NCBI GenBank assembly: GCA_018819225.1
Contig: JAHJQN010000003.1
Location: forward strand, 32,001 to 96,000
DNA: 64,000 bases
Direction: 5' to 3'
Source of the DNA: Candidatus Micrarchaeota archaeon
GTDB taxonomy: Archaea; Micrarchaeota; Micrarchaeia; Norongarragalinales; SBBD01
Shown here: piece after piece, positions 4,645-40,565 of the stretch
Numbering within the stretch: position 1 is the stretch's first letter
Layout: every line of letters begins with the position of its first letter
Notes under the pieces: model-generated
The model's database searches: none
Told to the model about the DNA's origin: nothing
The model's input: the letters and a program-made list of their open reading frames with translations, nothing else
Program-made: the position numbers and the translations under genes

Positions 4645-6117
4645 TCACGGGCTCAACGAACTGGATGCCTTAGGAGCTGGCGCTTTCACGGTGATCACAT
4701 CGGCTTTCGTCTTCTTGCGCAGCTCTTCGCGCTTCGCCTCGTCCTTCAACTGCTCTTCAGCGGTTTTCTCGCCGCCCACCCACTTGTCCATCACCAAACA
4801 AGCCGTTAAGTCCCCGGTAACGTTTATGGCGGTACGGCTCATGTCCAGAATGCGGTCCACTCCAAAAATCAAGGCAATTCCGGCAGCGGGAATGCCGACT
4901 CCACCTAATACCAACGAAAGAATCGCGATTCCGATGCCAGGAGTCGCTGGCGCGCCAATGGAGGCAACGACTACGGTAACGACAATGAACGCCAACGCGC
5001 TAAGCCCCAAATCCAGGCCGAATACTTGCGCGAGAAAAACAGCGGCGACTCCTTGGTATAATGCCGTGCCGTCCATGTTGACTGTGGCGCCCAACGGAAT
5101 AATAAAATGCGAAATGGACGGACGCACGCCTAACTTCTCTTCGGCAGTGCGCATGGATAGCGGCATGACTACCGCAGAGCTTGACGTGGAAAACGCAAGA
5201 AGTTGAGCATCTCGAATGGCTCCCATGAACACCCACGGGTTCTTGCCCGCAACTATCCACACCAACGCCAAATAGAAAACGAGCAGCAAAACAAGTCCCA
5301 GCAATACCACGCCCACGTACGCCGACAAGCCCGTTAACGTTTCAATCCCAAAACGCGAAGTCAATTGCGCCATGAGCCCGAACACGGCCAGCGGAGCCAA
5401 CAACATCGCCCACTTGACGATCGTCATGCATACTTGCTGCAACGAGCCCAACAATTCAAGCAGCGGTCGCGACTGCTTCGTGTCCATGTTCACGAGAGCG
5501 ATCCCGAAAATCAATGAAAATATGACGAGCTGCAACATTTCGCCATTAATGGCAGACCCCAACGGATTCGTGGGGAGCAACGTGCCCACCAACCCCGGAA
5601 TTTCTTTAAACGAAGGAGTCGCCATCCGGCTCTGATTGATTTCAAGCGAATCCGTGCCGATCACGTCCGCAGCGAATTCCTGGCTGACGAACTGTCCGGG
5701 ATTCAACCACGAAGCTAACGCGATACCGATTACAATGGCGAGCGTGGTCGTCAAAATGAAGTAAATGGCGAGTACCGTGCCCTTTTTTTTCAGCTGCTGC
5801 ATGCTCTCGCTCGCGGCAATCCCGCGAATAATGGATGCGAAAATAAGCGGAATAACAATCATTTGAATGACGCGCAAGAACACGTTGCCGGGCAAACCCA
5901 TCCATTCCCCTAGCGCATACGACGTGGCGGGATCAATGAAACCGAAGTAAGGCCTCATGAGGAAGCCGGCCAGGATGCCGAAAACCATTGCGATAATGAT
6001 TTTCAGCCACAACCGGCCTTTCACGAGCCCTTCCAAATGCTCGCTCAAGTATTTCAGGGGGCGCGGGTGAATACTGGCCAACGGATTAGAAGAATCTGGT
6101 TTCGGCACGATGCACAA
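4645..6117 (-). CDS. Dicarboxylate/amino acid:cation symporter (DAACS, GltP/GltT-like)
   Basis: Motifs FSTSSS, PLGATVNMDGTALY and DRILDMSRTAINVTGD; multiple TM helices. Confidence 0.92.
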   Translation of the reverse strand: MCIVPKPDSSNPLASIHPRPLKYLSEHLEGLVKGRLWLKIIIAMVFGILAGFLMRPYFGFIDPATSYALGEWMGLPGNVFLRVIQMIVIPLIFASIIRGIAASESMQQLKKKGTVLAIYFILTTTLAIVIGIALASWLNPGQFVSQEFAADVIGTDSLEINQSRMATPSFKEIPGLVGTLLPTNPLGSAINGEMLQLVIFSLIFGIALVNMDTKQSRPLLELLGSLQQVCMTIVKWAMLLAPLAVFGLMAQLTSRFGIETLTGLSAYVGVVLLGLVLLLVFYLALVWIVAGKNPWVFMGAIRDAQLLAFSTSSSAVVMPLSMRTAEEKLGVRPSISHFIIPLGATVNMDGTALYQGVAAVFLAQVFGLDLGLSALAFIVVTVVVASIGAPATPGIGIAILSLVLGGVGIPAAGIALIFGVDRILDMSRTAINVTGDLTACLVMDKWVGGEKTAEEQLKDEAKREELRKKTKADVITVKAPAPKASSSLSP

Positions 6118-6167
6118 CCCGAAACGGTTACGTCCCCATCATTTAAAAAACGCGTTTTCAAATCCGT

Positions 6168-7085
6168 TCAATCTGCGGCGGACGGAAAGAGAGTCGTGCT
6201 GTAATATCGATCCGAAGAATCCGGAAGCACCGTAATAACGACTCCTTCACCAAGCTCTTTAGCCGTATGTAAAGCCGCCGCGTAATTCGCTCCCGCGCTG
6301 ATGCCCGCTCCAAAACCTTGATGGGCCAATTTCCTCGAATGCGCAATTGCCTGCGGAGTCGAGACCTTCTTCCAGGCACTCACCATGGAACGGTTTGCGG
6401 CAATGATACCGGGCACAAAACCGATGCCGATGCCCCCGATTCCATGCGAACCCTTCCTGCCTTCTGAAATCATAGGACTTTCCTCAGGCTCCACGCCAAT
6501 GATTTTTACGCCTGAAAACGATTTCCGAACAGCTCTCGCGACTCCAATCAACGTGCCACCGGTACCGGCACCGGCGACGAATGCGGACAACTCACCGGCT
6601 TTTCGTTCCTCGAGTTGTCTCAGGATTTCAGGCCCAGTGCATTCCTCGTGCGCGCGAATGTTTTCCACATTATCGTATTGGGAAGGAAGCCATGCGCCGG
6701 ATTCCTCGGAAACCGCTTTCGCTTTCTCTACGGCTCCGGAATAGCCTTCTACAGCGGATACCAGCATGAGATTCGCTCCGTACAGTTTCATGATGGAACG
6801 GCGTTCCACGGTAGCCATTTCAGGCATGACCGCAGTAAACTCGTAACCCCGCACAGCGGATAGCCATGCAAACGATATGCCGGTGTTCCCGCTCGTGGCT
6901 TCCACGATGCGCTTGCGACCCAATAAATCGTTGGCCTCTGCCGCATCCGCCATATGCTTGGCCATGCGGTCCTTGACGCTCCCACTGGGATTCAAGTACT
7001 CCAGCTTCGCGAAAATGCGCGCTCCCTCCGGAGATTCAAGCTCCATCAACGGCGTGTTTCCAACTTCTTTGCAAATACCGTGCAC
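6168..7085 (-). CDS. cysK: PLP-dependent cysteine synthase family protein (CysK/CysM-like)
   Basis: Motifs KLEYLNPSGSVKDR, EATSGNTG, GTGGT, GISAG and LPDSSDRY. GTG start preceded by GGAGGTG. Confidence 0.88.
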   Translation of the reverse strand: MHGICKEVGNTPLMELESPEGARIFAKLEYLNPSGSVKDRMAKHMADAAEANDLLGRKRIVEATSGNTGISFAWLSAVRGYEFTAVMPEMATVERRSIMKLYGANLMLVSAVEGYSGAVEKAKAVSEESGAWLPSQYDNVENIRAHEECTGPEILRQLEERKAGELSAFVAGAGTGGTLIGVARAVRKSFSGVKIIGVEPEESPMISEGRKGSHGIGGIGIGFVPGIIAANRSMVSAWKKVSTPQAIAHSRKLAHQGFGAGISAGANYAAALHTAKELGEGVVITVLPDSSDRYYSTTLFPSAAD

Positions 7086-7163
7086 AGGCTCCCACCTCCG
7101 CTTATCTTCAATCCAACGATTTTTTGGAAGAAAGGAAAATGATAAAACAATTGCGTTTTGATT

Positions 7164-8087
7164 TCAGCTCACCGACGGCGGCGGAGGACACGAACCCGGC
7201 GGAACATTTTGATTCGAAGGGTTTCCTGCGAGCGCGTCCTCAAATTGTTGCAAGGTCTGCGGACCCACCATGACGATGCCGTTCAAGAAGAAAGTCGGGG
7301 TTCCATAGACTCCTGCAGTGGTGGCTGCATCCTTATCTAATTGAACGCGTTGCGCGGTTTGCTCATTACCCATACACGAACGGAAAGCGGATTCGTCCAT
7401 ACCCATTTTGCGTGCCACCGCAATTAACGATTCAGGAGAACGATCGTTCAGTTCAAACAACGCATCGTGGTACGCCCAGTAATTATTCTGTTCCAATGCG
7501 CAGAAAGAGGCTTTCGCTGCATCCAGACTATTTTCATGAGCCGGAAGCGGAAGCACGCGGAATTCGAGGGAAATTTCCGGATGCCTGGAAAGGAATTCCT
7601 TGAGCGCCGGCTGCGTTTGCTTCGTATACGGACAAGTGAAACAACCCACTTCCACTAAAACAATTTCCCCTGAGCCGCGCACGGGCCCGACTCCCGGAAT
7701 AATGGGAATGACTTCATCCGGCGTGTTGTCCCCAAAAACCAAATCAAACGGACAGAAACCAGTGCCTTGCGGGCCATCGCAATGCCCGTAAACCGCGTAA
7801 TTGTAGGAAGCGTAAGCCGTGTAGAACATGCTCGCAAAGAAGAGTGCCGTAAAGAAAAATGAGATGAAACGGAAATGTTTATTCAAACTTCCGGCCATCG
7901 AAGGAGAAAACGTAATGACGTGAACCAGAATCGTGGCCTTCAACCGTTCATCCAACTTGCTCTCGCACGGACGAAAGGTAGCGGTTCGGATGACGCAGTC
8001 AAACGCCTCACCGGCCAGCGCGCGATATTTCGCAGAGAATATGCCGAGTACGGCAAACACGAACAATGCCACGAAACAAAGAACCAT
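7164..8087 (-). CDS. Membrane-anchored thioredoxin-fold (DsbA-like) protein
   Basis: N-terminal TM segments, EVGCFTCPYT active-site region, LPLPAH..S..AAKAS.CA..Q..YW.YHD.LF and the cis-Pro motif GVYGTPTFFLNG. Confidence 0.8.
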   Translation of the reverse strand: MVLCFVALFVFAVLGIFSAKYRALAGEAFDCVIRTATFRPCESKLDERLKATILVHVITFSPSMAGSLNKHFRFISFFFTALFFASMFYTAYASYNYAVYGHCDGPQGTGFCPFDLVFGDNTPDEVIPIIPGVGPVRGSGEIVLVEVGCFTCPYTKQTQPALKEFLSRHPEISLEFRVLPLPAHENSLDAAKASFCALEQNNYWAYHDALFELNDRSPESLIAVARKMGMDESAFRSCMGNEQTAQRVQLDKDAATTAGVYGTPTFFLNGIVMVGPQTLQQFEDALAGNPSNQNVPPGSCPPPPSVS

Positions 8088-8094
8088 GCGCGAT

Positions 8095-9267
8095 TCAACT
8101 CAAAGCCGCCAACGTCTTTAAAGCTTCCCCGAAACGAGTCACTTGCTCTTCCGTATTGTAGACGTGCAACGAAGCCCTCACCGTGCCCGGCACGCCCAGT
8201 TTTTTAGTGAGGGGAATCGCGCAATGATGTCCGGAACGACATGCAAACCCCAATTGATCGAGCATGACCGCCGCTTGATGGTGCGGAACATTTTTTACGG
8301 AAAACGGGAATATTGCTCCTGCTTTTTCCTCCGCTTGGTTCGAACCGAACAACGTGACATGCGGCGACTCTTGAAAAACGCGCAACATCGCGGCAATCAA
8401 TTTCTGATCGTGAGACTGAATAACAGAATAACCGATTTGGTTAATGACATCTAACGCGGCCCCGAGCCCCAGCCATTCAGCTATGGGCGGCGTTCCTGCT
8501 TCAAAGCGCTCCCGGTGCTTCAATAAGTTGTAATCGGATAAGGATACGTCGCGAACGGTTCCACCGCCGACAAACCAAGGCGAGAGATCGACATTCTTTC
8601 GATGAAATAGAACGCCGATTCCCGTGGGGCCAAAGCTCTTGTGACCGGAAAACGCGAGAAAATCAACAGGCCATTGCTTCAAGCTAACGGGATGATGGCC
8701 CACGTATTGAGCGGCATCCACGAAAACGAGCGCGCCGGCTTTCTTGGCCGTGCTCGCCAAATCCGTTATTGGAATCGTCCCGCCCAACACGTTACTGCAA
8801 GCAGTAAATGACACTAAACGCGTCTTCTTGGAGATCACGGACACAAGCTTTTCAGGAGACAAGCGGCCTTCCGCATCCGACTCCAATATGCGAACAAGGA
8901 CTCCCTGCTTTTTCAAGCGCAGCCAAGGCAACAGATTCGAATGATGCTCAATATCCGTGACAATGACTTCGTCTCCTTTACTCCATTCCAACCCCAAAGC
9001 GACGGCATTAACGGCTTCCGTCGTATTGCGTACTGCAGTAAACTCCTGCGCGTCCGCTTGAAAGAAGTGCGCTAATTTTCCATAAACGGACTCGTATTCA
9101 TCCGATGCTTTTAGAGTTAGTCGATGCGCTCCGCGGTGAATGTTCGCCCGGTAATCCCGATAGTATTCCTGCATTTTCTCCAAAGCGGGCGTACACGTCA
9201 GCGAAGTAGCTGCGGAATCGAAGTACGCCATTCCTGCTGGTTGTTGGAATAGCTCGGATACGTCCAT
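8095..9267 (-). CDS. sufS: Cysteine desulfurase, SufS-type (class V aminotransferase)
   Basis: Motifs YFDSAATS, ANIHRG, EHHSN, DAAQ, FSGHK, FEAGTP and the group II motif RSGHHCA. Confidence 0.88.
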   Translation of the reverse strand: MDVSELFQQPAGMAYFDSAATSLTCTPALEKMQEYYRDYRANIHRGAHRLTLKASDEYESVYGKLAHFFQADAQEFTAVRNTTEAVNAVALGLEWSKGDEVIVTDIEHHSNLLPWLRLKKQGVLVRILESDAEGRLSPEKLVSVISKKTRLVSFTACSNVLGGTIPITDLASTAKKAGALVFVDAAQYVGHHPVSLKQWPVDFLAFSGHKSFGPTGIGVLFHRKNVDLSPWFVGGGTVRDVSLSDYNLLKHRERFEAGTPPIAEWLGLGAALDVINQIGYSVIQSHDQKLIAAMLRVFQESPHVTLFGSNQAEEKAGAIFPFSVKNVPHHQAAVMLDQLGFACRSGHHCAIPLTKKLGVPGTVRASLHVYNTEEQVTRFGEALKTLAALS

Positions 9268-34270: not shown

Positions 34271-35173
34271 TTGAAAGGAATTACGTTGAAACACGGCACG
34301 CAACGATTGAAGGAAGGCTTCGCTAAAATGCAGAAAGGCGGCGTCATCATGGACGTGGTCAACGAAAAGCAGGCGAAGATCGCGGAAGAAGCCGGCGCCG
34401 TAGCGGTCATGGCCTTGCACGCCGTTCCAGCGGACATTCGTAAGGAAGGGGGAGTGGCGCGCATGGCCGATCCCCTGGTCATCGAACAAATCATGAAGGC
34501 CGTCACGATACCGGTGATGGCCAAAGCGCGCATTGGACACGTTGCGGAAGCGCAAGTGTTGCAGGAACTGGGCGTGGACATGATTGATGAAAGCGAAGTG
34601 CTGACTCCCGCCGACGAAGAGCATCACATCGACAAGAGCCAATTCACGATTCCGTTCGTATGCGGTGCCCGCGATCTCGGAGAAGCGTTGAGACGCATTG
34701 ATGAGGGGGCGGCCATGATTCGCACCAAAGGCGAGCCCGGAACCGGAAATGTCGTTGAAGCGGTTCGCCACGCCCGAAAAGTGAACCAAGAGATTGCCGA
34801 ACTCGTCAAGAATATCAATAACGCGTCCGTCCTGGAGAAAAAAGCAAACGAATATGGCGTCCCCCTATCGCTCGTGAAAAAAATCGCCCAGGAAAAGCGG
34901 TTGACCGTCGTCAATTTTGCGGCCGGAGGCATTGCCACTCCCGCCGACGCCGCGTTGATGATGCAGCTCGGAGTCGACGGCGTTTTTGTGGGCAGCGGCA
35001 TCTTCAAGAGCCAGTTCCCGGAAAAGTTTGCGAAAGCCATCGTGGAGGCCACGCGCCATTACGATGATGCGTCGGTGGTGGCGCGCGTATCCCGCGGATT
35101 GGGAACGCCCATGAAAGGAATCGAGACGTCCATGTTGAAAAAAGAAGAGCGCATGCAGGACCGAGGAATCTGA
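34271..35173 (+). CDS. pdxS: Pyridoxal 5'-phosphate synthase, synthase subunit
   Basis: [55 protein letters not shown] and FVGSGIFKS. Confidence 0.97.
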
Positions 35174-35187
35174 ACGGAGGAGGGCCC

Positions 35188-35829
35188 ATGGCTGAAAAAC
35201 CAAAGAAATCCTCTCGAGAACAACGATTCGAGCACTTGATGAAACGAAGTGCCGAAACGCCGGAAGGGCGTGCGAGCGGTATATGGAAACGAAATCCGTT
35301 ATTGCATAATTACACGATTCCGCACGCGTTTCTGATGAACGATCACGAGCTCGGATTGGAATCGTTTGCAAAATCGCATCCAAGATACTCAAGGTCCCAA
35401 GTGTATTATGCGCGAAGAATTATTCGGGGGAACCAACGAGTGGTTAACCGGCTCATTGGAAGCTGGAGAAACGGAAAGCACGTACTCGCAAGTGGTCCAG
35501 CCCTCATGGAATTAATTTCAGCAGCCTCTCCTGAGGAACGGACTTTGAGAAAACGGCGCGTTCCAACGGGAGTGCAAGACGTACGTGCGCTCGTCATCCA
35601 AGCGGACCGCTGGATTGAAGGGGGGCTCTGCACTCCAGAAATCGATCGGTACGCGATGCATCTTAAAACACATTTTTTGAACCATTTGAAAAGTGCTGAA
35701 CGCGTGCCTGAATATGCTCAGGTGGCACGAGCCATGCAAAAAGTATTCCAAGACGCAGATCATCTTGCGTTAGCCCATGCTCTCGTGCGAAACGTCCATT
35801 CCTATTATTCGGACCCGAATAAAACGTAA
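35188..35829 (+). CDS. Hypothetical protein between pdxS and pdxT
   Basis: 213-aa ORF with a GGAGGAGG SD, filling the gap exactly; no recognisable motif. Confidence 0.65.
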   Translation: MAEKPKKSSREQRFEHLMKRSAETPEGRASGIWKRNPLLHNYTIPHAFLMNDHELGLESFAKSHPRYSRSQVYYARRIIRGNQRVVNRLIGSWRNGKHVLASGPALMELISAASPEERTLRKRRVPTGVQDVRALVIQADRWIEGGLCTPEIDRYAMHLKTHFLNHLKSAERVPEYAQVARAMQKVFQDADHLALAHALVRNVHSYYSDPNKT

Positions 35830-35839
35830 GGCGAATGCT

Positions 35840-36418
35840 TTGAAAATCGGCGTACTCGGTTTACAGGGAGCGGTGTCGGAACACCTCGAGGTGCTTCGCA
35901 AGCTTCCGGTGGAAGCGGTCTGGGTGAAAGAGGATAAGCACCTCGCGGCCGTGGATGCGTTAATCCTTCCCGGAGGCGAAAGCACCACCATTTCAACATT
36001 GCTGGAAAAAAACCGTTTATTTGAACCGTTGAAAGAACGCGCAAGCAACGGAATGCCGATCTTCGGAACGTGTGCAGGACTCGTATTGTTGGCGAAGGAT
36101 GCAGGACGACAACAGCAACAGACCGGCCAAAAATTATTGGAGCTCATGGATATGCGCGTGAACCGAAACGCGTTTGGCCGACAAAAAGACAGCATGGAAG
36201 CCCCGATAACCATTCAAGGCATTGCAGGAAAATTCCCGGCCGTGTTCATCCGAGCGCCCGTTATTGAAAAAGTGAATGGAACGTGTCACATCATTGCGCG
36301 TCTCGATCAACACATCGTCGCTGCGGAACAAGAACCATTCCTGGCCACGAGCTTTCATCCGGAGCTCTCCGGCGATTCGCGCGTACACGAATATTTCATT
36401 CGGAAAATCAAGCGCTAG
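35840..36418 (+). CDS. pdxT: Pyridoxal 5'-phosphate synthase, glutaminase subunit
   Basis: KIGVLGLQG, PGGESTT, GTCAG, RNAFGRQ, FIRAP and FHPEL; TTG start at 35840. Confidence 0.95.
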   Translation: MKIGVLGLQGAVSEHLEVLRKLPVEAVWVKEDKHLAAVDALILPGGESTTISTLLEKNRLFEPLKERASNGMPIFGTCAGLVLLAKDAGRQQQQTGQKLLELMDMRVNRNAFGRQKDSMEAPITIQGIAGKFPAVFIRAPVIEKVNGTCHIIARLDQHIVAAEQEPFLATSFHPELSGDSRVHEYFIRKIKR

Positions 36419-36918
36419 TAAATCGACACTTTCTTCACGCCCTTGATTTGCGGAAAGCGATTCAGCAAAGCACCCGGAATCTTGCGTTCGGTAATGATGA
36501 GGAGAGTCGGGTTCTCAAATAGCTCGGGATCCTTCGCGTACACTTGACGAATCCGAATCCGTTTTTCCGCCAACAGTTGAGTGGCCGCAGCCACGATACC
36601 GCCTCTCCGCGCATCCGCTTCAATTTCAACGACCCCGAAACCCAGCATCGGGGCCACCTCCCGCAATAACGATCCCGCCGGTTGAATATGGGAGAAAATT
36701 TTGTTTAGATACGGATCGGAACGAATCCCTGCAATGGTTCGACGGACCATCCGGCGGTCGACGCCCGCGCTTTGCGCTAACGAGGCATCCTTGACTTCCA
36801 CATCCCCGCAACAAATTTTTCCGTCCTCGCGAATCCGGAGCCCCAACTCGACGAGCTTTCGCGCCACCGATTTCTGAGCCGGCAGGCCACCAAACAATCC
36901 CGAAACCCGATTCCACAT
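36415..36918 (-). CDS. trpY: TrpY tryptophan-responsive transcription regulator (HTH + ACT)
   Basis: Starts M-W and W2 is the only Trp; CGDVEV...LA...GVDRRMV HTH region; ACT-like GIVAAAT.LLA...I.IRQ...DPEL; divergent from trpB2 across TGTACA boxes. Confidence 0.85.
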   Translation of the reverse strand: MWNRVSGLFGGLPAQKSVARKLVELGLRIREDGKICCGDVEVKDASLAQSAGVDRRMVRRTIAGIRSDPYLNKIFSHIQPAGSLLREVAPMLGFGVVEIEADARRGGIVAAATQLLAEKRIRIRQVYAKDPELFENPTLLIITERKIPGALLNRFPQIKGVKKVSIY

Positions 36919-36920
36919 AA

Positions 36921-36951
36921 TGTACAAATATGTACAGCAATGTATTAAATA
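36921..36951. promoter_or_regulatory. TRP boxes (TrpY operator) and overlapping divergent TATA elements
   Basis: TGTACA 36921-36926, TGTACA 36931-36936 and TGTATT 36941-36946 at 10-bp periodicity; AT-rich TATA-like core at 36944-36951. Confidence 0.85.
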
Positions 36952-36998
36952 GATACGTCGAGTCGATGGAAGATACCAGTCAGCTAGAGGTGTTTCTA

Positions 36999-37028
36999 AT
37001 GAAACCAGGCGAGTTACTTTGGCGTTAA
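36999..37028 (+). CDS. trpB2 leader ORF MKPGELLWR (zero-frame part of a putative frameshift gene)
   Basis: GAGGTG SD at 36987-36992; ATG AAA CCA GGC GAG TTA CTT TGG CGT TAA. Confidence 0.7.
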   Translation: MKPGELLWR

Positions 37029-38316
37029 AACCGTATTAACCGAGGACGAGGTCCCGAGAAACTACTACAACATATTGCCGGACCTCCCCAAACCGCTCGA
37101 TCCTCCACTGGACGGACAAACCCGCATGCCCATCACTCCCGATGCGCTCAAACCCATTTTTCCGATGGAAATAATCCGGCAAGAGGTTTCCACGCAAAAA
37201 ACGATTGCGATACCCGACGAAGTACGCGAAGCGTATTTGAAATTGGGACGGCCTACCCCCTTATACCGCGCAAAGAAATTGGAAGCGAAACTGAAAACGC
37301 CCGCAAAAATCTTCTTCAAGCGAGAGGATTTGAATCCGTGCGGCTCGCATAAGCCGAATACCGCCATCGCGCAAGCCTACTATTCCATGAAAGAAGGCGT
37401 GGACGTGCTGGCCACGGAAACCGGTGCCGGACAATGGGGAACCGCTCTCGCTTACGCGACCCAGCTTTTCGGCTTAAAATGCGACGTGTTCATGGTGCGA
37501 ACCAGCTTTGAACAAAAACCGTACCGGAAAACGCTCATGCAACTCTACGGAGCCCACGTCACCCCCTCCCCGAGCCAGCGCACAACATTCGGGCAAGAAG
37601 TGCTAAAAAAAAGTCCGGAACACCCCGGGAGTCTTGGAATCGCGATCAGCGAAGCCTTGGAAACCGTCGTCACATCTAAAAACGCGAAGTACTCGTTGGG
37701 AAGCGTGCTCAATCACGTGTTATTGCACCAAACCGTCATCGGACAAGAAACACTGATTCAACTCGCTAAAAACGATGTCGAACCGGATGTCATGATTGGC
37801 TGCGTGGGAGGCGGCAGCAACTTCGGGGGATTCGCGTTTCCGGCCATGGAACGCAAACTCAAAAAGAAAACGAATACGCGGTTTATTGCCGTAGAACCCG
37901 ATGCCGCGCCATCCATCACCAAAGGAACGTACGCTTACGACGCAGGGGACACGGCCGGCATGACGCCGTTGATGAAAATGTATACGCTGGGGAAGGAATT
38001 CATTCCATCCCCCATTCATGCCGGCGGGCTGAGATATCACGGCATGGCACCCGCCATCTCTCTGCTCGCGCAAGAAAAACTCATCGAAGCGAAAGCGTAT
38101 TCCCAGATCAAAATCTTCGATGCGGCCGCGCTGTTTGCGCAAACCGAGGGAATCGTGGCGGCACCGGAAAGCGCGCACGCGATCGCGGCGGCCATTGATG
38201 AAGCCAAAGCATGCAAACGCTCGGGAGAAAGGCAAACCATTGTCTTCAATCTCTCGGGCCACGGACTCCTTGACCTGAAAGGATACGAAGACTACTTGGA
38301 AGGAAGAATCACGTGA
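36999..38316 (+). CDS. trpB2: Tryptophan synthase beta chain, TrpB2 type (about 438 aa if joined by a +1 frameshift at 37017-37023)
   Basis: KTVLTEDEVPRNYYNILPDLP, RPTPL.RA..LE, GSHKPNTA, TETGAGQWG, GSLGIAISEA, GSVLNHV, GGGSN, HAGGLRYHG, APES and FNLSGHG. Confidence 0.92.
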
Positions 38317-38323
38317 TGAAAAA

Positions 38324-38731
38324 ATGCCGTTAATTCCCGCTGGACAACTCAGGCCGCACGAGCGCATTGAACGAATGCGGTTAAGAAAAGTACGCGCGGA
38401 TATCGAAGCGCGAGGCGTGCTCGACTATCCGTTGCTTGTCTACGAGGAAACGCGCGTTATATTGGATGGACATCACCGCTTTCGCGCGCTTCAACTAATG
38501 GGCTGTCCGCTGATCCCCGTCCAGTTCATTAGATATGAAGGAAAGGCCGTGCAAGTCAGCAGCCAGCGCCCCGGCGTACGCGTCAGCAAAGCGCGTGTCC
38601 GTGAACGCGGTTTAACGGGCCGTTTATTCCCGCCCAAAACCACGAAACACGCATATAAGAAAAGGAGAAAACCGTTTAAATTAAATGAAAGTAGCGTCCT
38701 CGCTTTGGAGGGCGGACCCACAATATATTAA
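38324..38731 (+). CDS. ParB/Srx N-terminal domain protein, candidate free-serine kinase (SerK/SbnI-like)
   Basis: LRPHE, G.LDYPLLV, ILDGHHR..AL..MG...IP and FPPKTT; 7 bp downstream of trpB2. Confidence 0.72.
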   Translation: MPLIPAGQLRPHERIERMRLRKVRADIEARGVLDYPLLVYEETRVILDGHHRFRALQLMGCPLIPVQFIRYEGKAVQVSSQRPGVRVSKARVRERGLTGRLFPPKTTKHAYKKRRKPFKLNESSVLALEGGPTIY

Positions 38732-38783
38732 ACTGTCGTCGCACTCAATTAGCCAAGGAAACCATACGGGTTAGGTGCGACTT

Positions 38784-40565
38784 ATGCTTCGACAGCCCAT
38801 CGTATGCGTATTGGGTCATGTGGACCACGGAAAAACCAGCCTATTAGATGCCTTGCGAAAAACGCGCATCACGGAAAAAGAAGCCGGAAAAATCACGCAA
38901 GGCATTTCCTCGTGGGAAATCCCCATCGGCATGATCGAATCCGCGTGCGGCGCGCTCATGAATAAAATGAAGACAAAATTCTCTATCCCGGGACTGCTTT
39001 TCATTGACACGCCGGGACACGAAGCGTTCGTCAACCTGCGAAAACGCGGAGGAAGCATTGCGGACATCGCGATTCTCGTCATCGACGTGAATCAAGGCCT
39101 GCAGCCGCAAACCAAGGAAGCCATTGAAATACTTCGGGAATACAAGACCCCGTTCGTCGTCGCGTTCACGAAAATCGATACCATGCAAGGCTGGGTCGAA
39201 AACCGGCCGAAAAACACGTGTTTTACGGACGTGCTTCAAACCCAACGCGAAGACGTGCGGGATGACCTCGACAAAAAAATTTACGAGCTCGTCGGAAATC
39301 TGTCGCAGTACGGATTCTCCTGCGAACGGTTTGACCGCGTGGACGATTTCACGCAACAAATCGCGATCATTCCCACGAGCAGCGAGACCCGCGAAGGCCT
39401 GGCGGAACTCCTTTTATTCGTGGCAGGGCTCGCGCAAAAGTTTATGGAAAAGAAGCTCGAAAAAGGACCCGGCCCGGGTAAAGCCAGCATTTTGGAGCTC
39501 AAGGAAGAACGCGGAATCGGAAAGACGCTGGACGTCATCGTTTACGAAGGAACGATTCGTGAAGGAGAAGATATCGTGTTCTCGCAAGCGGATGGCACGC
39601 CCATTCGCTCGCGCGTTAAAGCACTCTTAAAACCCAAACCATTAGACCAAAGAACCAACCCCGAAGAAAAATTCACGACCGTGAAATCCGTGGAGGCGGC
39701 GGCCGGAGTCAAAATCGCATGCGAGAACGCCGATCACGCGGTCGCTGGTTCCTCCGTATTCGTTGTAAACGACCAAACCGCTTCGCAAATGGAAGACGAG
39801 CTGCGCAAGGAAGCGAAAGAAATTGAAGTGGAAACCAACGAGAACGGGGTCATCGTCAATGCGGACGCGCTCGGTAGCTTGGAAGCGATTGTCCGGATGC
39901 TCAAGCATGAAAACATTCCGATCCGACACGCACGAGTCGGAAAAATCGTCAAGAAAGACGTATTGGAGGCGGCGAGCGTGGCGAAAGGAAACCAGTTCCT
40001 GGGAGTCGTGTTCGGGTTCAATACATCGATGGAAGATGATGCACGACAAACCGCCAAGGAAGAACACGTCAAGCTTTTTGAAGAAAAAGTGATTTACTAC
40101 TTAATCGAAAATTACAAGCAGTGGAAACAAGAGGAGAAAGAAGCGGAACGGAAAAAAGCGTTCCAGACGATTCCGTTGCCGGCCCGCATCCAAGTACTTG
40201 AAAACCATTGTTTCCGCGTCAGCAGCCCCTGCATATTCGGCGTGGAGGTATTGGTAGGACGCATACGGAAAGGCACGCGATTGATGACGGAAAGCGGCGT
40301 CAGTATCGGGGAAATCAAGTCCATTCAAAAAGAAAAGGAATCCGTGGACGAAGCCAAACGAGGGGACTCGGTAGCCATCGCCGTGCAAGGACCGTATTTT
40401 GGAAGGCAAGTAAAAGAAAAGTTCGTGTTGTACACGGAAATTGATCGAAACAACGTGAAAACGCTGGAAGAAAAATACGGGCAAGCGCTCAGCGACGAAG
40501 AAAAAGAATTGCTGCAGGTCATCAAGAAAATCCGCGGCTTCACCGTCATCCGTTCGACGAAATAG
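38784..40565 (+). CDS. infB: Translation initiation factor aIF5B (IF2)
   Basis: LRQPIVCVLGHVDHGKT, EAGKITQ, FIDTPGHEAF..LRKRGG, TKID and DALGSLEA. Confidence 0.96.
   Translation: MLRQPIVCVLGHVDHGKTSLLDALRKTRITEKEAGKITQGISSWEIPIGMIESACGALMNKMKTKFSIPGLLFIDTPGHEAFVNLRKRGGSIADIAILVIDVNQGLQPQTKEAIEILREYKTPFVVAFTKIDTMQGWVENRPKNTCFTDVLQTQREDVRDDLDKKIYELVGNLSQYGFSCERFDRVDDFTQQIAIIPTSSETREGLAELLLFVAGLAQKFMEKKLEKGPGPGKASILELKEERGIGKTLDVIVYEGTIREGEDIVFSQADGTPIRSRVKALLKPKPLDQRTNPEEKFTTVKSVEAAAGVKIACENADHAVAGSSVFVVNDQTASQMEDELRKEAKEIEVETNENGVIVNADALGSLEAIVRMLKHENIPIRHARVGKIVKKDVLEAASVAKGNQFLGVVFGFNTSMEDDARQTAKEEHVKLFEEKVIYYLIENYKQWKQEEKEAERKKAFQTIPLPARIQVLENHCFRVSSPCIFGVEVLVGRIRKGTRLMTESGVSIGEIKSIQKEKESVDEAKRGDSVAIAVQGPYFGRQVKEKFVLYTEIDRNNVKTLEEKYGQALSDEEKELLQVIKKIRGFTVIRSTK

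What the first reader, a model, noticed from the sequence alone, without database searches (positions are those of the whole stretch)
36999..38731. trpB2 followed by a minimal ParB/Srx-domain protein: a possible phosphoserine-supplying kinase for indole salvage
Seen: a 135-aa ORF 7 bp after trpB2 with PHE, P.LV, LDGHHR..AL and FPPKTT motifs, and no trpA or other trp genes in the window. Established: TrpB2 enzymes preferentially use O-phospho-L-serine plus indole, and the free-serine kinases SerK (Thermococcus) and SbnI (Staphylococcus) have a ParB/Srx fold with a catalytic Glu and a DGxHR motif. Inference: this is a two-gene Ser to O-phosphoserine to Trp salvage module, with pdxS/pdxT next door supplying PLP. 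The protein is much shorter than characterised serine kinases, so it could be a minimal form.
Basis: partly seen in the sequence, partly recalled or inferred. Interest (0 to 1): 0.72.

Follow-up and report, generated by a model that had tools for sequence, protein, structure and literature searches.

The report
Mini serine-kinase gene beside trpB2
A 135-residue, stripped-down relative of the free-serine kinases SerK and SbnI sits directly after trpB2, the only tryptophan-pathway gene I found in this small Micrarchaeota genome; it most likely makes the O-phosphoserine that TrpB2 joins to scavenged indole, but no enzyme activity has been measured and I found no paper describing the pairing.

Summary
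A 135-aa ORF (38324-38731) starts 7 nt after trpB2 and carries the PHE, DGHHR and FPPKTT motifs.

A profile of its family matches SerK in two pieces (chain 16-116 and 200-241). An AlphaFold model (pLDDT 90) superposes on SerK over 125 residues (rmsd 1.6-1.8, Z 17-18). So it is the SerK core without the roughly 100-residue inserted subdomain and the C-terminal tail.

Gene neighbourhoods support the interpretation:
- Of 62 related loci with complete flanks, 14 sit next to trpB2 and 19 next to CysM or O-phosphoserine sulfhydrylase genes.
- In its own phylum, all 6 genomes with both genes have them adjacent.
- One OPSS fusion exists.
- Bacterial versions sit behind Trp-specific T-boxes; archaeal ones sit beside trpY.

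At 90% completeness, the genome shows no trpA, trpC, trpE, cysE or serC, so a serine kinase is the simplest source of phosphoserine.

Nothing has been tested at the bench. Only 3 of 80 trpB2 loci carry the partner, and other family members have unrelated neighbours.

This scan has reported the same pairing in at least 25 other genomes. I found no paper on it. I rate it a new variant of a known kind, with confidence about 0.6.

Separately, trpB2 appears to need a +1 frameshift at CTT-TGG.

The parts
38324..38731 (+). Mini-SerK: a 135-aa SerK/SbnI-family ParB/Srx-fold protein, the proposed free L-serine kinase
   Evidence: NCBIfam partial hits to SbnI (6e-12) and SerK (5e-10). A family profile hits SerK at 7e-24 in two stretches. 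The model has pLDDT 90. VIA-align gives Z 17-18, rmsd 1.6-1.8 and 125 aligned residues on SerK chain 18-242. The invariant motifs are listed.
37021..38316 (+). trpB2, a stand-alone TrpB-like PLP enzyme. The conserved coding starts near 37021 in this frame; the first canonical start is TTG 37075.
   Evidence: NF009057 scores 673 bits and TIGR01415 scores 644 bits. The best solved relatives are Sulfolobus TrpB2 chains 6hul_B, 6hte_B and 4qys_B. The N-terminal segment is conserved in relatives.
36987..37028 (+). Shine-Dalgarno site (GAGGTG), then a 9-codon ORF (ATG 36999 to TAA 37028) that ends with CTT TGG CGT TAA. CTT-TGG (37017-37022) is a candidate +1 frameshift site leading into the trpB2 frame.
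   Evidence: The same layout occurs in five other Micrarchaeota genomes, and a seventh relative has the site but an in-frame ATG. An independent assembly of the source run is identical here.
36415..36927 (-). TrpY-family transcription regulator, divergent from trpB2
   Evidence: NF053754 scores 193.7 bits against a cut-off of 180. It is divergently adjacent to trpB2 in at least eight other archaeal genomes.
36921..36946 (.). TGTACA-N4-TGTACA-N4-TGTATT repeat between trpY and trpB2, a candidate TrpY operator
   Evidence: It is the only match in the window, with 0 expected from shuffles. TGTACA clusters are also present in the closest relative, L046. That TGTACA is the TRP-box consensus is from my memory of the Methanothermobacter work.
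6168..7085 (-). cysK-type cysteine synthase, a possible second consumer of O-phosphoserine. It is not adjacent to the kinase gene.
   Evidence: TIGR01136 scores 314 bits. It is the only other fold-type-II PLP enzyme in the genome. No cysE was found.

Best explanation
The 135-aa protein is a minimal free L-serine kinase. It keeps the ParB/Srx catalytic core of SerK, including the catalytic Glu (E13, equivalent to SerK E30), the phosphate-binding DGHHR loop (48-52) and the PKTT.H motif (104-109). It has lost SerK's inserted subdomain and C-terminal tail.

It is co-transcribed with trpB2 and its translation is linked to trpB2's. It phosphorylates serine with a nucleotide donor whose identity is unknown. 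TrpB2 then condenses the O-phosphoserine with scavenged indole to give tryptophan.

The pair is switched on when tryptophan is short, here through a TrpY-family repressor and possibly a Trp-codon frameshift. This also limits futile cycling against the genome's SerB phosphatase.

Shown here: homology, fold, motif retention, and recurrent adjacency to enzymes that use O-phosphoserine. Inferred: the substrate, the phosphate donor and the metabolic flux.
For: **Homology and fold**
- The best NCBIfam hits are SbnI and SerK.
- The family profile matches SerK chain 16-116 and 200-241 at E 7e-24.
- The AlphaFold model (pLDDT 90) aligns 125 residues to SerK at rmsd 1.6-1.8 and Z 17-18. The best ParB, Noc or Srx match reaches only Z 8.5.
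- E13 aligns with SerK E30, the residue mutated in PDB entries 5x0e, 5x0g, 5x0j and 5x0k.

**Gene neighbourhood**
- Of 80 species-level loci, 18 are adjacent to trpB2 and 26 to CysM or OPSS genes. Among the 62 loci with complete flanks, the total is 33.
- The archaeal partner is the ortholog of Aeropyrum O-phosphoserine sulfhydrylase (1wkv, E 2e-78).
- True fusions to OPSS exist: L036 and P0051.
- Neighbour type (trpB2, cysteine synthase or other) switches repeatedly on the family tree, 18 changes in all.

**Own phylum**
- 11 of 151 genomes carry the short form, and 6 of those also have trpB2. All 6 pairs are adjacent.
- 14 of 18 trpB2 genomes have a short or long SerK homolog, against 34 of 133 genomes without trpB2. 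Related genomes are not independent, so the p-value overstates this.

**Regulation**
- T-box leaders with a UGG specifier precede trpB2 and mini-SerK in L034 and L022.
- trpY is adjacent in archaeal loci.

**Metabolic gap**
- I found no trpA, trpC, trpE, cysE or serC in the 90%-complete genome, while SHMT is present.

**Literature**
- TrpB2 enzymes prefer O-phosphoserine (Busch 2014, as cited in PMC11917138).
- SerK feeds an O-phosphoserine-using CysK (PMC5120207).
Against: - No activity has been measured.
- The protein lacks about 100 internal residues and the tail of SerK. I could not check whether those parts contact serine, because the structural papers are not held and no ligand coordinates are available.
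- Only 3 of the 80 closest trpB2 loci carry the gene, so most TrpB2 enzymes work without it.
- About half of the family members have other neighbours: TrmY and PCMT genes, Mo-hydroxylase subunits, or LysRS.
- Some members are fused to GalU-like nucleotidyltransferases or LbH proteins, which hints at other substrates.
- The window's copy is divergent: at most 52% identity to relatives, on a long branch.
- A SerK-like protein was reported to bind CTP rather than ATP (PMC12704722).
- SerB is present, so free phosphoserine could be hydrolysed.
- O-phosphoserine preference has not been shown for this TrpB2.
Confidence: 0.6

Rival explanations
1. It is a small-molecule kinase or phosphotransferase of the SerK family, but its substrate or direction differs. 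It might act on another hydroxy compound, or run backwards to turn phosphoserine into serine. In that case the trpB2 adjacency reflects shared regulation rather than substrate supply.
For: Some family members are fused to GalU-like sugar-1-phosphate nucleotidyltransferases (L008, P0083, P0113) or to LbH proteins. Many loci lack a PLP partner. SerK's inserted subdomain is missing. DUF1015 'SerBK' proteins are proposed to run the reaction both ways (PMC13759103).
Against: The two recurrent partners, TrpB2 and OPSS/CysM, have O-phosphoserine as their common substrate. An OPSS fusion exists. The motifs shared with SerK are invariant. A reverse reaction makes little sense next to an enzyme that consumes phosphoserine, in a genome that already has SerB.
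Confidence: 0.17
2. It is a nucleotide-binding regulator, like the regulatory face of SbnI or other orphan ParB-fold switches. It would control trpB2 or cys genes rather than catalyse a reaction.
For: SbnI is annotated as a bifunctional regulator and synthase. ParB-fold proteins are often NTP-dependent switches (PMC12704722). The window protein has a basic, low-confidence C-terminal tail.
Against: There is no HTH or other DNA-binding domain, and the protein is only 135 aa. The catalytic Glu and the PKTT.H motif are invariant. These operons already have dedicated Trp sensors, either a T-box or TrpY. Fusion to OPSS fits an enzyme partner better than a regulator.
Confidence: 0.08
3. It is a non-catalytic accessory subunit that docks on TrpB2 or OPSS. 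It would act as an activator standing in for the missing TrpA, much like the degenerate ParB-like N-terminal domain of OPSS.
For: It shows tight adjacency and fusion to PLP enzymes. The OPSS N-terminal domain is homologous to it but has lost the motifs (hhalign probability 95%; Z about 6).
Against: Unlike the OPSS domain, the free-standing proteins keep every catalytic motif under strong conservation. Many members have no PLP neighbour.
Confidence: 0.08

Closest known systems
SerK, the ADP-dependent free L-serine kinase of Thermococcus kodakarensis (TK0378; PDB 5x0b-5x0k; P. furiosus homolog 1vk1; NCBIfam NF053625)
   Same: It shares the ParB/Srx core (Z 17-18, rmsd 1.6-1.8 over 125 residues), the PHE catalytic Glu, DGHHR and PKTTRH motifs, and a functional link to an O-phosphoserine-using PLP enzyme.
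   Different: It is 135 aa rather than 242 aa. It lacks the internal segment of about 100 residues (SerK roughly 117-199) and the C-terminal tail. It scores 38.9 bits against a cut-off of 380. Its partner here is TrpB2, not CysK, and the phosphate donor is unknown.
The SbnI-SbnA pair of Staphylococcus aureus (staphyloferrin B synthesis; PDB 5uje, 5ujd, 6nr6)
   Same: A serine kinase is encoded in the same cluster as the fold-type-II PLP enzyme that consumes its O-phosphoserine. The N-terminal domain is the best single-sequence match (E 7.5e-9).
   Different: SbnI has a 254-aa two-domain architecture and a regulatory role. The C-terminal PKTT.H motif did not align to SbnI in the profile search.
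Aeropyrum pernix O-phosphoserine sulfhydrylase (CysO, PDB 1wkv)
   Same: Its orthologs are the commonest archaeal neighbours of this small gene. Its own N-terminal domain is a diverged homolog of the small protein.
   Different: The OPSS domain has lost the HE, DGHHR and PKTT.H motifs and is part of the PLP enzyme.
ParB CTPase clamps and sulfiredoxin
   Same: They share the ancestral ParB/Srx nucleotide-binding fold (Z 7-8.5).
   Different: The small protein has no HTH or dimerisation domain. It has no GERR-type box and no catalytic Cys: it reads LDGHHR where Srx, from my memory, reads FGGCHR.

Membership tests
SerK (NCBIfam NF053625, ADP-dependent L-serine kinase) | ParB/Srx-fold core that superposes on solved SerK | tested here: met
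   VIA-align gives Z 16.8-17.9, rmsd 1.6-1.8 and 125 aligned residues, model 1-125 on chain 18-242.
SerK (NCBIfam NF053625, ADP-dependent L-serine kinase) | Catalytic Glu of the P-H-E motif (SerK E30) | tested here: met
   E13 aligns with E30 in the profile alignment and is invariant in 21 relatives. PDB titles name E30A and E30Q mutants.
SerK (NCBIfam NF053625, ADP-dependent L-serine kinase) | DGHHR loop and the C-terminal (S/P)PKTTRH motif | tested here: met
   D48-R52 aligns with SerK D69-R73, and P104-H109 aligns with SerK P220-H225. Both are invariant or nearly so.
SerK (NCBIfam NF053625, ADP-dependent L-serine kinase) | Full two-part architecture of about 240 aa that scores above the curated cut-off | tested here: not met
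   It scores 38.9 bits against a cut-off of 380, and only profile positions 18-111 match. The internal segment of about 100 residues and the tail are absent.
SerK (NCBIfam NF053625, ADP-dependent L-serine kinase) | Phosphorylates free L-serine to O-phospho-L-serine | not testable with these tools
   This needs a bench assay.
SbnI (NCBIfam NF033589) | Two-domain 254-aa protein that scores above the cut-off | tested here: not met
   It scores 45.4 bits against a cut-off of 350, and the match covers only profile positions 10-82.
ParB/Noc/KorB CTP-dependent DNA clamps | HTH DNA-binding domain and C-terminal dimerisation domain after the N-terminal fold | tested here: not met
   The protein is 135 aa. 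Its only Pfam hit is ParB_N at 17.3 bits, below the 26.3 cut-off. Structural Z is at most 8.5.
Sulfiredoxin | Catalytic cysteine in the nucleotide-binding motif | tested here: not met
   The motif reads L-D-G-H-H-R with no Cys. The Srx motif itself is from my memory.
TrpB2 (NCBIfam NF009057 / TIGR01415), for the partner gene | Scores above the curated cut-offs | tested here: met
   NF009057 scores 673 bits (cut-off 366) and TIGR01415 scores 644.3 bits (cut-off 518.85).
TrpB2 (NCBIfam NF009057 / TIGR01415), for the partner gene | Prefers O-phospho-L-serine over L-serine | not testable with these tools
   This is known for other TrpB2 enzymes (Busch 2014, as cited in PMC11917138). It has not been examined for this protein.

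The most novel reading that the evidence does not exclude
The 135-aa protein is the smallest free-amino-acid kinase, and it works only when docked on its PLP partner (TrpB2 here, OPSS elsewhere). The partner would replace SerK's missing subdomain and take up O-phosphoserine directly, keeping it away from SerB. The degenerate ParB-like N-terminal domain of archaeal OPSS would then be a fossil of such a docked kinase. In this genome the whole module would be gated twice by tryptophan, through TrpY and through a hungry-UGG +1 frameshift.
Probability: 0.15. Interest if true: 0.85.

Novelty: new variant of a known kind. Interest (0 to 1): 0.62.

Why it matters
TrpB2 enzymes have been reported since 2014 to prefer O-phosphoserine. 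What supplies that substrate for indole salvage has not been explained, and an earlier neighbourhood analysis found no conserved partner for trpB2 (PMC1854888).

A dedicated mini serine kinase would give a self-contained two-gene route from serine plus indole to tryptophan. That route would let reduced, host-dependent archaea and many bacteria salvage indole.

It would also widen the free-serine-kinase family from two characterised types to thousands of unannotated proteins: 1,737 cluster representatives at E 1e-10 or better. And it would define the minimal catalytic core of the ParB/Srx kinase fold. The hypothesis can be tested directly with two recombinant proteins.

Tried and rejected
- **Complex prediction.** TrpB2 with the small protein, both as alignments, gave no verdict (score 0.28 against a mark of 0.32). 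This is not evidence either way.
- **Papers.** The SerK and SbnI structural papers (PMC5912478, 10.1074/jbc.RA118.001875, 10.1021/acschembio.7b00064) are not held. Serine-contact residues could therefore not be mapped.
- **RNA data.** No RNA holder was listed. Only contigs of the probable source sample covered the stretch. They agree with the window but are not independent.
- **False fusions.**
  - The '463-aa open frame' in G145 is two ORFs separated by one stop, not a fusion.
  - A 467-aa ORF in L049 is an out-of-frame extension produced by my ORF caller.
- **pdxS/pdxT as part of the module.** The synteny is limited to two close relatives, L046 and G131.
- **Other readings.** I considered a sulfiredoxin, nuclease or chromosome-partition role and dropped it on the motif and domain evidence.
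- **Literature searches.** No paper holds both 'TrpB2' and 'serine kinase'. GapMind 2026 discusses DUF1015 'SerBK', not this family.

Full report
**What is there.** The window is archaeal. The closest relatives of its genes are Candidatus Micrarchaeota MAGs. The assembly is 1.37 Mb in 8 contigs and 90% complete. Around the finding lie:
- pdxS (34271-35173) and pdxT (35777-36418);
- a TrpY-family regulator on the minus strand (36415-36927; NF053754 at 193.7 bits);
- trpB2 (ending at 38316; NF009057 at 673 bits);
- the 135-aa ORF (38324-38731);
- aIF5B (38775-40565).

The small ORF starts 7 nt after the trpB2 stop, behind a GTGAT core that overlaps that stop.

**What the small protein is.**
- Pfam gives only a sub-threshold ParB_N hit (17.3 bits).
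- The best NCBIfam matches are SbnI (6e-12) and SerK (5e-10). Both cover only the N-terminal part of those 244-254-aa models.
- A database search found a family of 120-170-aa proteins, unnamed or labelled only 'ParB N-terminal domain-containing'.
- In an alignment of 21 members, H12, E13, P36, I-L-D-G-H-H-R (46-52), Y71 and L-F-P-P-K-T-x-x-H (101-109) are invariant.
- A profile of that alignment hits SerK (5x0b) and its Pyrococcus homolog (1vk1) at E 5.5e-24 and 7e-24, in two stretches. The first is chain 16-116, which contains P-H-E30 and D69-G-H-H-R73. The second is chain 200-241, which contains S-P-K-T-T-R-H.
- The AlphaFold model is confident (pLDDT 90, pTM 0.83).
- Foldseek ranks SbnI and SerK first.
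- VIA-align places model residues 1-125 on SerK residues 18-242, with 125 aligned positions, rmsd 1.6-1.8 and Z 17-18. SbnI scores Z 13-16 and every ParB, Noc or sulfiredoxin entry scores 8.5 or less.
- An alignment with about 265-275-aa SerK-like proteins from the same phylum shows the same picture. The short form lacks a block of about 100 residues and a tail of about 45 residues, and keeps H, E, P, D-G, R, Y, K, P-K and H.

So this is the SerK catalytic core without the insert. It fails SerK and SbnI membership on architecture and score, but it retains every conserved motif shared with SerK.

**Neighbourhood evidence.** I fetched 80 loci from different species.
- 18 have trpB2 directly adjacent, in both gene orders. 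They come from Thermoproteota, Bathyarchaeia, Micrarchaeota, Bacillota, Caldisericota, Ignavibacteriota and Saccharibacteria.
- 26 have a CysK/CysM-type gene adjacent.
- Among the 62 loci with at least 1.4 kb on both sides, 33 have one of these partners.
- The long archaeal partner is the ortholog of Aeropyrum O-phosphoserine sulfhydrylase: 1wkv at E 2e-78, against 7e-35 for the next hit.
- One Sulfolobales MAG encodes a continuous 575-aa fusion of the small protein to this OPSS. A similar 582-aa protein exists among the cluster representatives.
- In Caldisericota the gene lies within a NifS, NifU, small gene, CysM run.
- On a tree of the small proteins, neighbour type (trpB2, cysteine synthase or other) changes at least 18 times in all. 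Starred branches force at least two changes each for trpB2 and for cysteine-synthase neighbours.

In a sample of 151 genomes of the window's phylum:
- 11 carry the short form.
- 6 of those also have trpB2, and all 6 pairs are adjacent.
- Two others have CysM directly downstream.
- Another 37 or so genomes carry long SerK-like proteins.
- 14 of 18 trpB2 genomes have a short or long homolog, against 34 of 133 without trpB2. Fisher's test gives p 3e-5, but related genomes are not independent.

The association is one-sided: only 3 of the 80 closest trpB2 loci have the small gene within 1.5 kb.

**Regulation.** In two bacterial loci, a T-box leader above Rfam's gathering score lies just upstream of trpB2 and the small gene. 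Its specifier position reads GAA-UGG-A, the Trp codon. In archaea a trpY homolog is divergently adjacent in L035, L040, L046, G131, G006, G103, L232 and L254. Both arrangements point to expression when tryptophan is scarce.

**Metabolic context.**
- Not found in the genome: trpA, trpC, trpE, cysE and serC.
- Both class-V aminotransferases are SufS-like.
- Present: SHMT, a SerB just over its cut-off, one 2-hydroxyacid dehydrogenase that looks like a glyoxylate reductase, and one CysK.

At 90% completeness, absence is not proven. On what is seen, phosphorylating serine is the simplest route to O-phosphoserine for TrpB2, and perhaps for CysK too.

**Caveats.** Nothing has been measured. I could not read the SerK or SbnI structural papers, so I do not know whether the missing subdomain contacts serine. 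About half of the family has other neighbours: TrmY and PCMT genes in Fraserbacteria and Bipolaricaulota, Mo-hydroxylase subunits in Thermoplasmata, and LysRS in Bathyarchaeia. Fusions to GalU-like nucleotidyltransferases, a SufS-like protein and an LbH protein exist. The family may therefore not have a single substrate.

**Literature and novelty.** Makino et al. found clear SerK homologs only in four genera (PMC5120207). Merkl (2007) found no conserved trpB2 neighbourhood beyond trp operons. No held paper contains both 'TrpB2' and 'serine kinase'. The 2025 survey of the ParB fold mentions SerK and SbnI only as sporadic examples.

This scan has already reported the same pairing in at least 25 other genomes. 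I read those notes only, and my results agree with them.

I class this as a new variant of a known kind. The family has 1,737 cluster representatives at E 1e-10 or better.

**A second feature inside the given coordinates.**
- The ATG at 36999, preceded by GAGGTG, is not in the TrpB2 frame. It reads a 9-codon ORF that ends CTT TGG CGT TAA.
- The conserved TrpB2 N-terminus continues in the +1 frame from exactly CTT-T|GGC. No canonical start lies in that frame before TTG 37075.
- Five more Micrarchaeota genomes, which with the window fall in two TrpB2 clades, show the same layout: Shine-Dalgarno site, ATG, 4-5 codons before CTT, an internal G-rich SD-like hexamer, a 3-nt spacer, then CTT-TGG-(C/G). 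A seventh relative has an in-frame ATG instead.
- About 100 other trpB2 genes have an ordinary in-frame ATG.
- An independent assembly of the source run is identical at about 16x depth.
- The site resembles the RF2 CUU_U site with its 5' SD stimulator, and Ty1's CUU_AGG_C. The Atkins 2016 review states that no natural starvation-specific 'hungry codon' trans-frame protein is known (PMC5009743).
I list them under things noticed in passing.

Noticed in passing
window 36987-37028 (site CTT-TGG at 37017-37022): Candidate Trp-sensing +1 programmed frameshift needed to make full-length TrpB2. The layout is: SD (GAGGTG), ATG 36999, six codons, CTT TGG CGT TAA. The TrpB2 frame is +1 and has no canonical start before 37075. 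The same cassette, with an internal SD-like hexamer 3 nt before CTT, occurs in five other Micrarchaeota genomes, including the complete chromosome CP058998.1. With the window, these fall in two TrpB2 clades. A seventh relative has the site but an in-frame ATG. About 100 other trpB2 genes have a normal in-frame ATG. TrpB2 has one Trp and the small protein has none. I put the odds of a real +1 shift at about 0.5. It was already filed as separate findings e1-5613913 and e1-5605876.
   Followed up: partly
window 36921-36946, with trpY at 36415-36927 (-): TGTACA-N4-TGTACA-N4-TGTATT lies between the divergent trpY and trpB2. It is unique in the window (0 expected). Clusters of TGTACA boxes also occur in the closest relative, L046. 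The trpY-trpB2-small-gene cassette recurs in Micrarchaeota, Bathyarchaeia and a Thermoproteota MAG.
   Followed up: partly
L002:5446-5790, L036:6418-6840, L006:6383-6751; PDB 1wkv residues 2-76: The N-terminal domain of archaeal O-phosphoserine sulfhydrylase is a diverged homolog of the mini kinase that has lost the HE, DGHHR and PKTT.H motifs (hhalign probability 95%, E 2e-8; VIA Z about 6). In L006 and L010 a separate 123-125-aa ORF lies between the kinase gene and the OPSS gene. I included both ORFs in that domain alignment, but they align poorly and were not tested on their own. In L036 kinase, degenerate copy and OPSS are one 575-aa protein.
   Followed up: partly
L008:4420-6369; proteins P0083, P0113: A GalU-like nucleotidyltransferase is fused to the mini kinase (399-422 aa). 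In L008 the fusion lies directly after an ORF with a CDP-alcohol phosphatidyltransferase-like motif. A kinase, a nucleotidyltransferase and a phosphotransferase together resemble a Kennedy-type activation pathway. This suggests that some family members serve a different pathway, and possibly a different substrate.
   Followed up: no
proteins P0176, P0090: Further fusions of the mini-kinase domain: one to a SufS-like cysteine desulfurase (519 aa) and one to a gamma-carbonic-anhydrase/PaaY-like LbH protein (297 aa; several representatives have a similar length). Several tandem two-copy proteins of 333-649 aa also exist.
   Followed up: partly
G013, G087, G104 and about 34 more genomes of the phylum (loci L095-L103): Long SerK-like proteins (263-275 aa, mostly D-G-N-H-R instead of D-G-H-H-R) are common in this phylum: about 37 of 151 genomes. 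They score only 50-75 bits on the SerK model. In L095 and L100 a 2-hydroxyacid dehydrogenase lies 1.5-2.5 kb downstream.
   Followed up: partly
window 35188-35829: A 213-aa ORF with no Pfam or NCBIfam hit fills the gap between pdxS and pdxT. In the relative G131 the two genes are only about 67 nt apart, so this looks like an insertion.
   Followed up: no
window 4645-9267 (-): A cluster of four genes: a GltP/SstT-like amino-acid transporter, cysK, a thioredoxin-like lipoprotein-family ORF, and a SufS-like desulfurase. No cysE was found in the genome. CysK may also depend on O-phosphoserine.
   Followed up: partly
L038, L067, L072, L073, L085 (Thermoplasmata): In these loci the mini-kinase gene directly follows the FAD-binding subunit gene of a molybdenum hydroxylase, in an apparent large-subunit, FAD-subunit, small-gene operon. 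The ORFs overlap by 4 nt in L038, L072, L073 and L085; in L067 they read as one open frame. O-phosphoserine supply does not explain this context.
   Followed up: no
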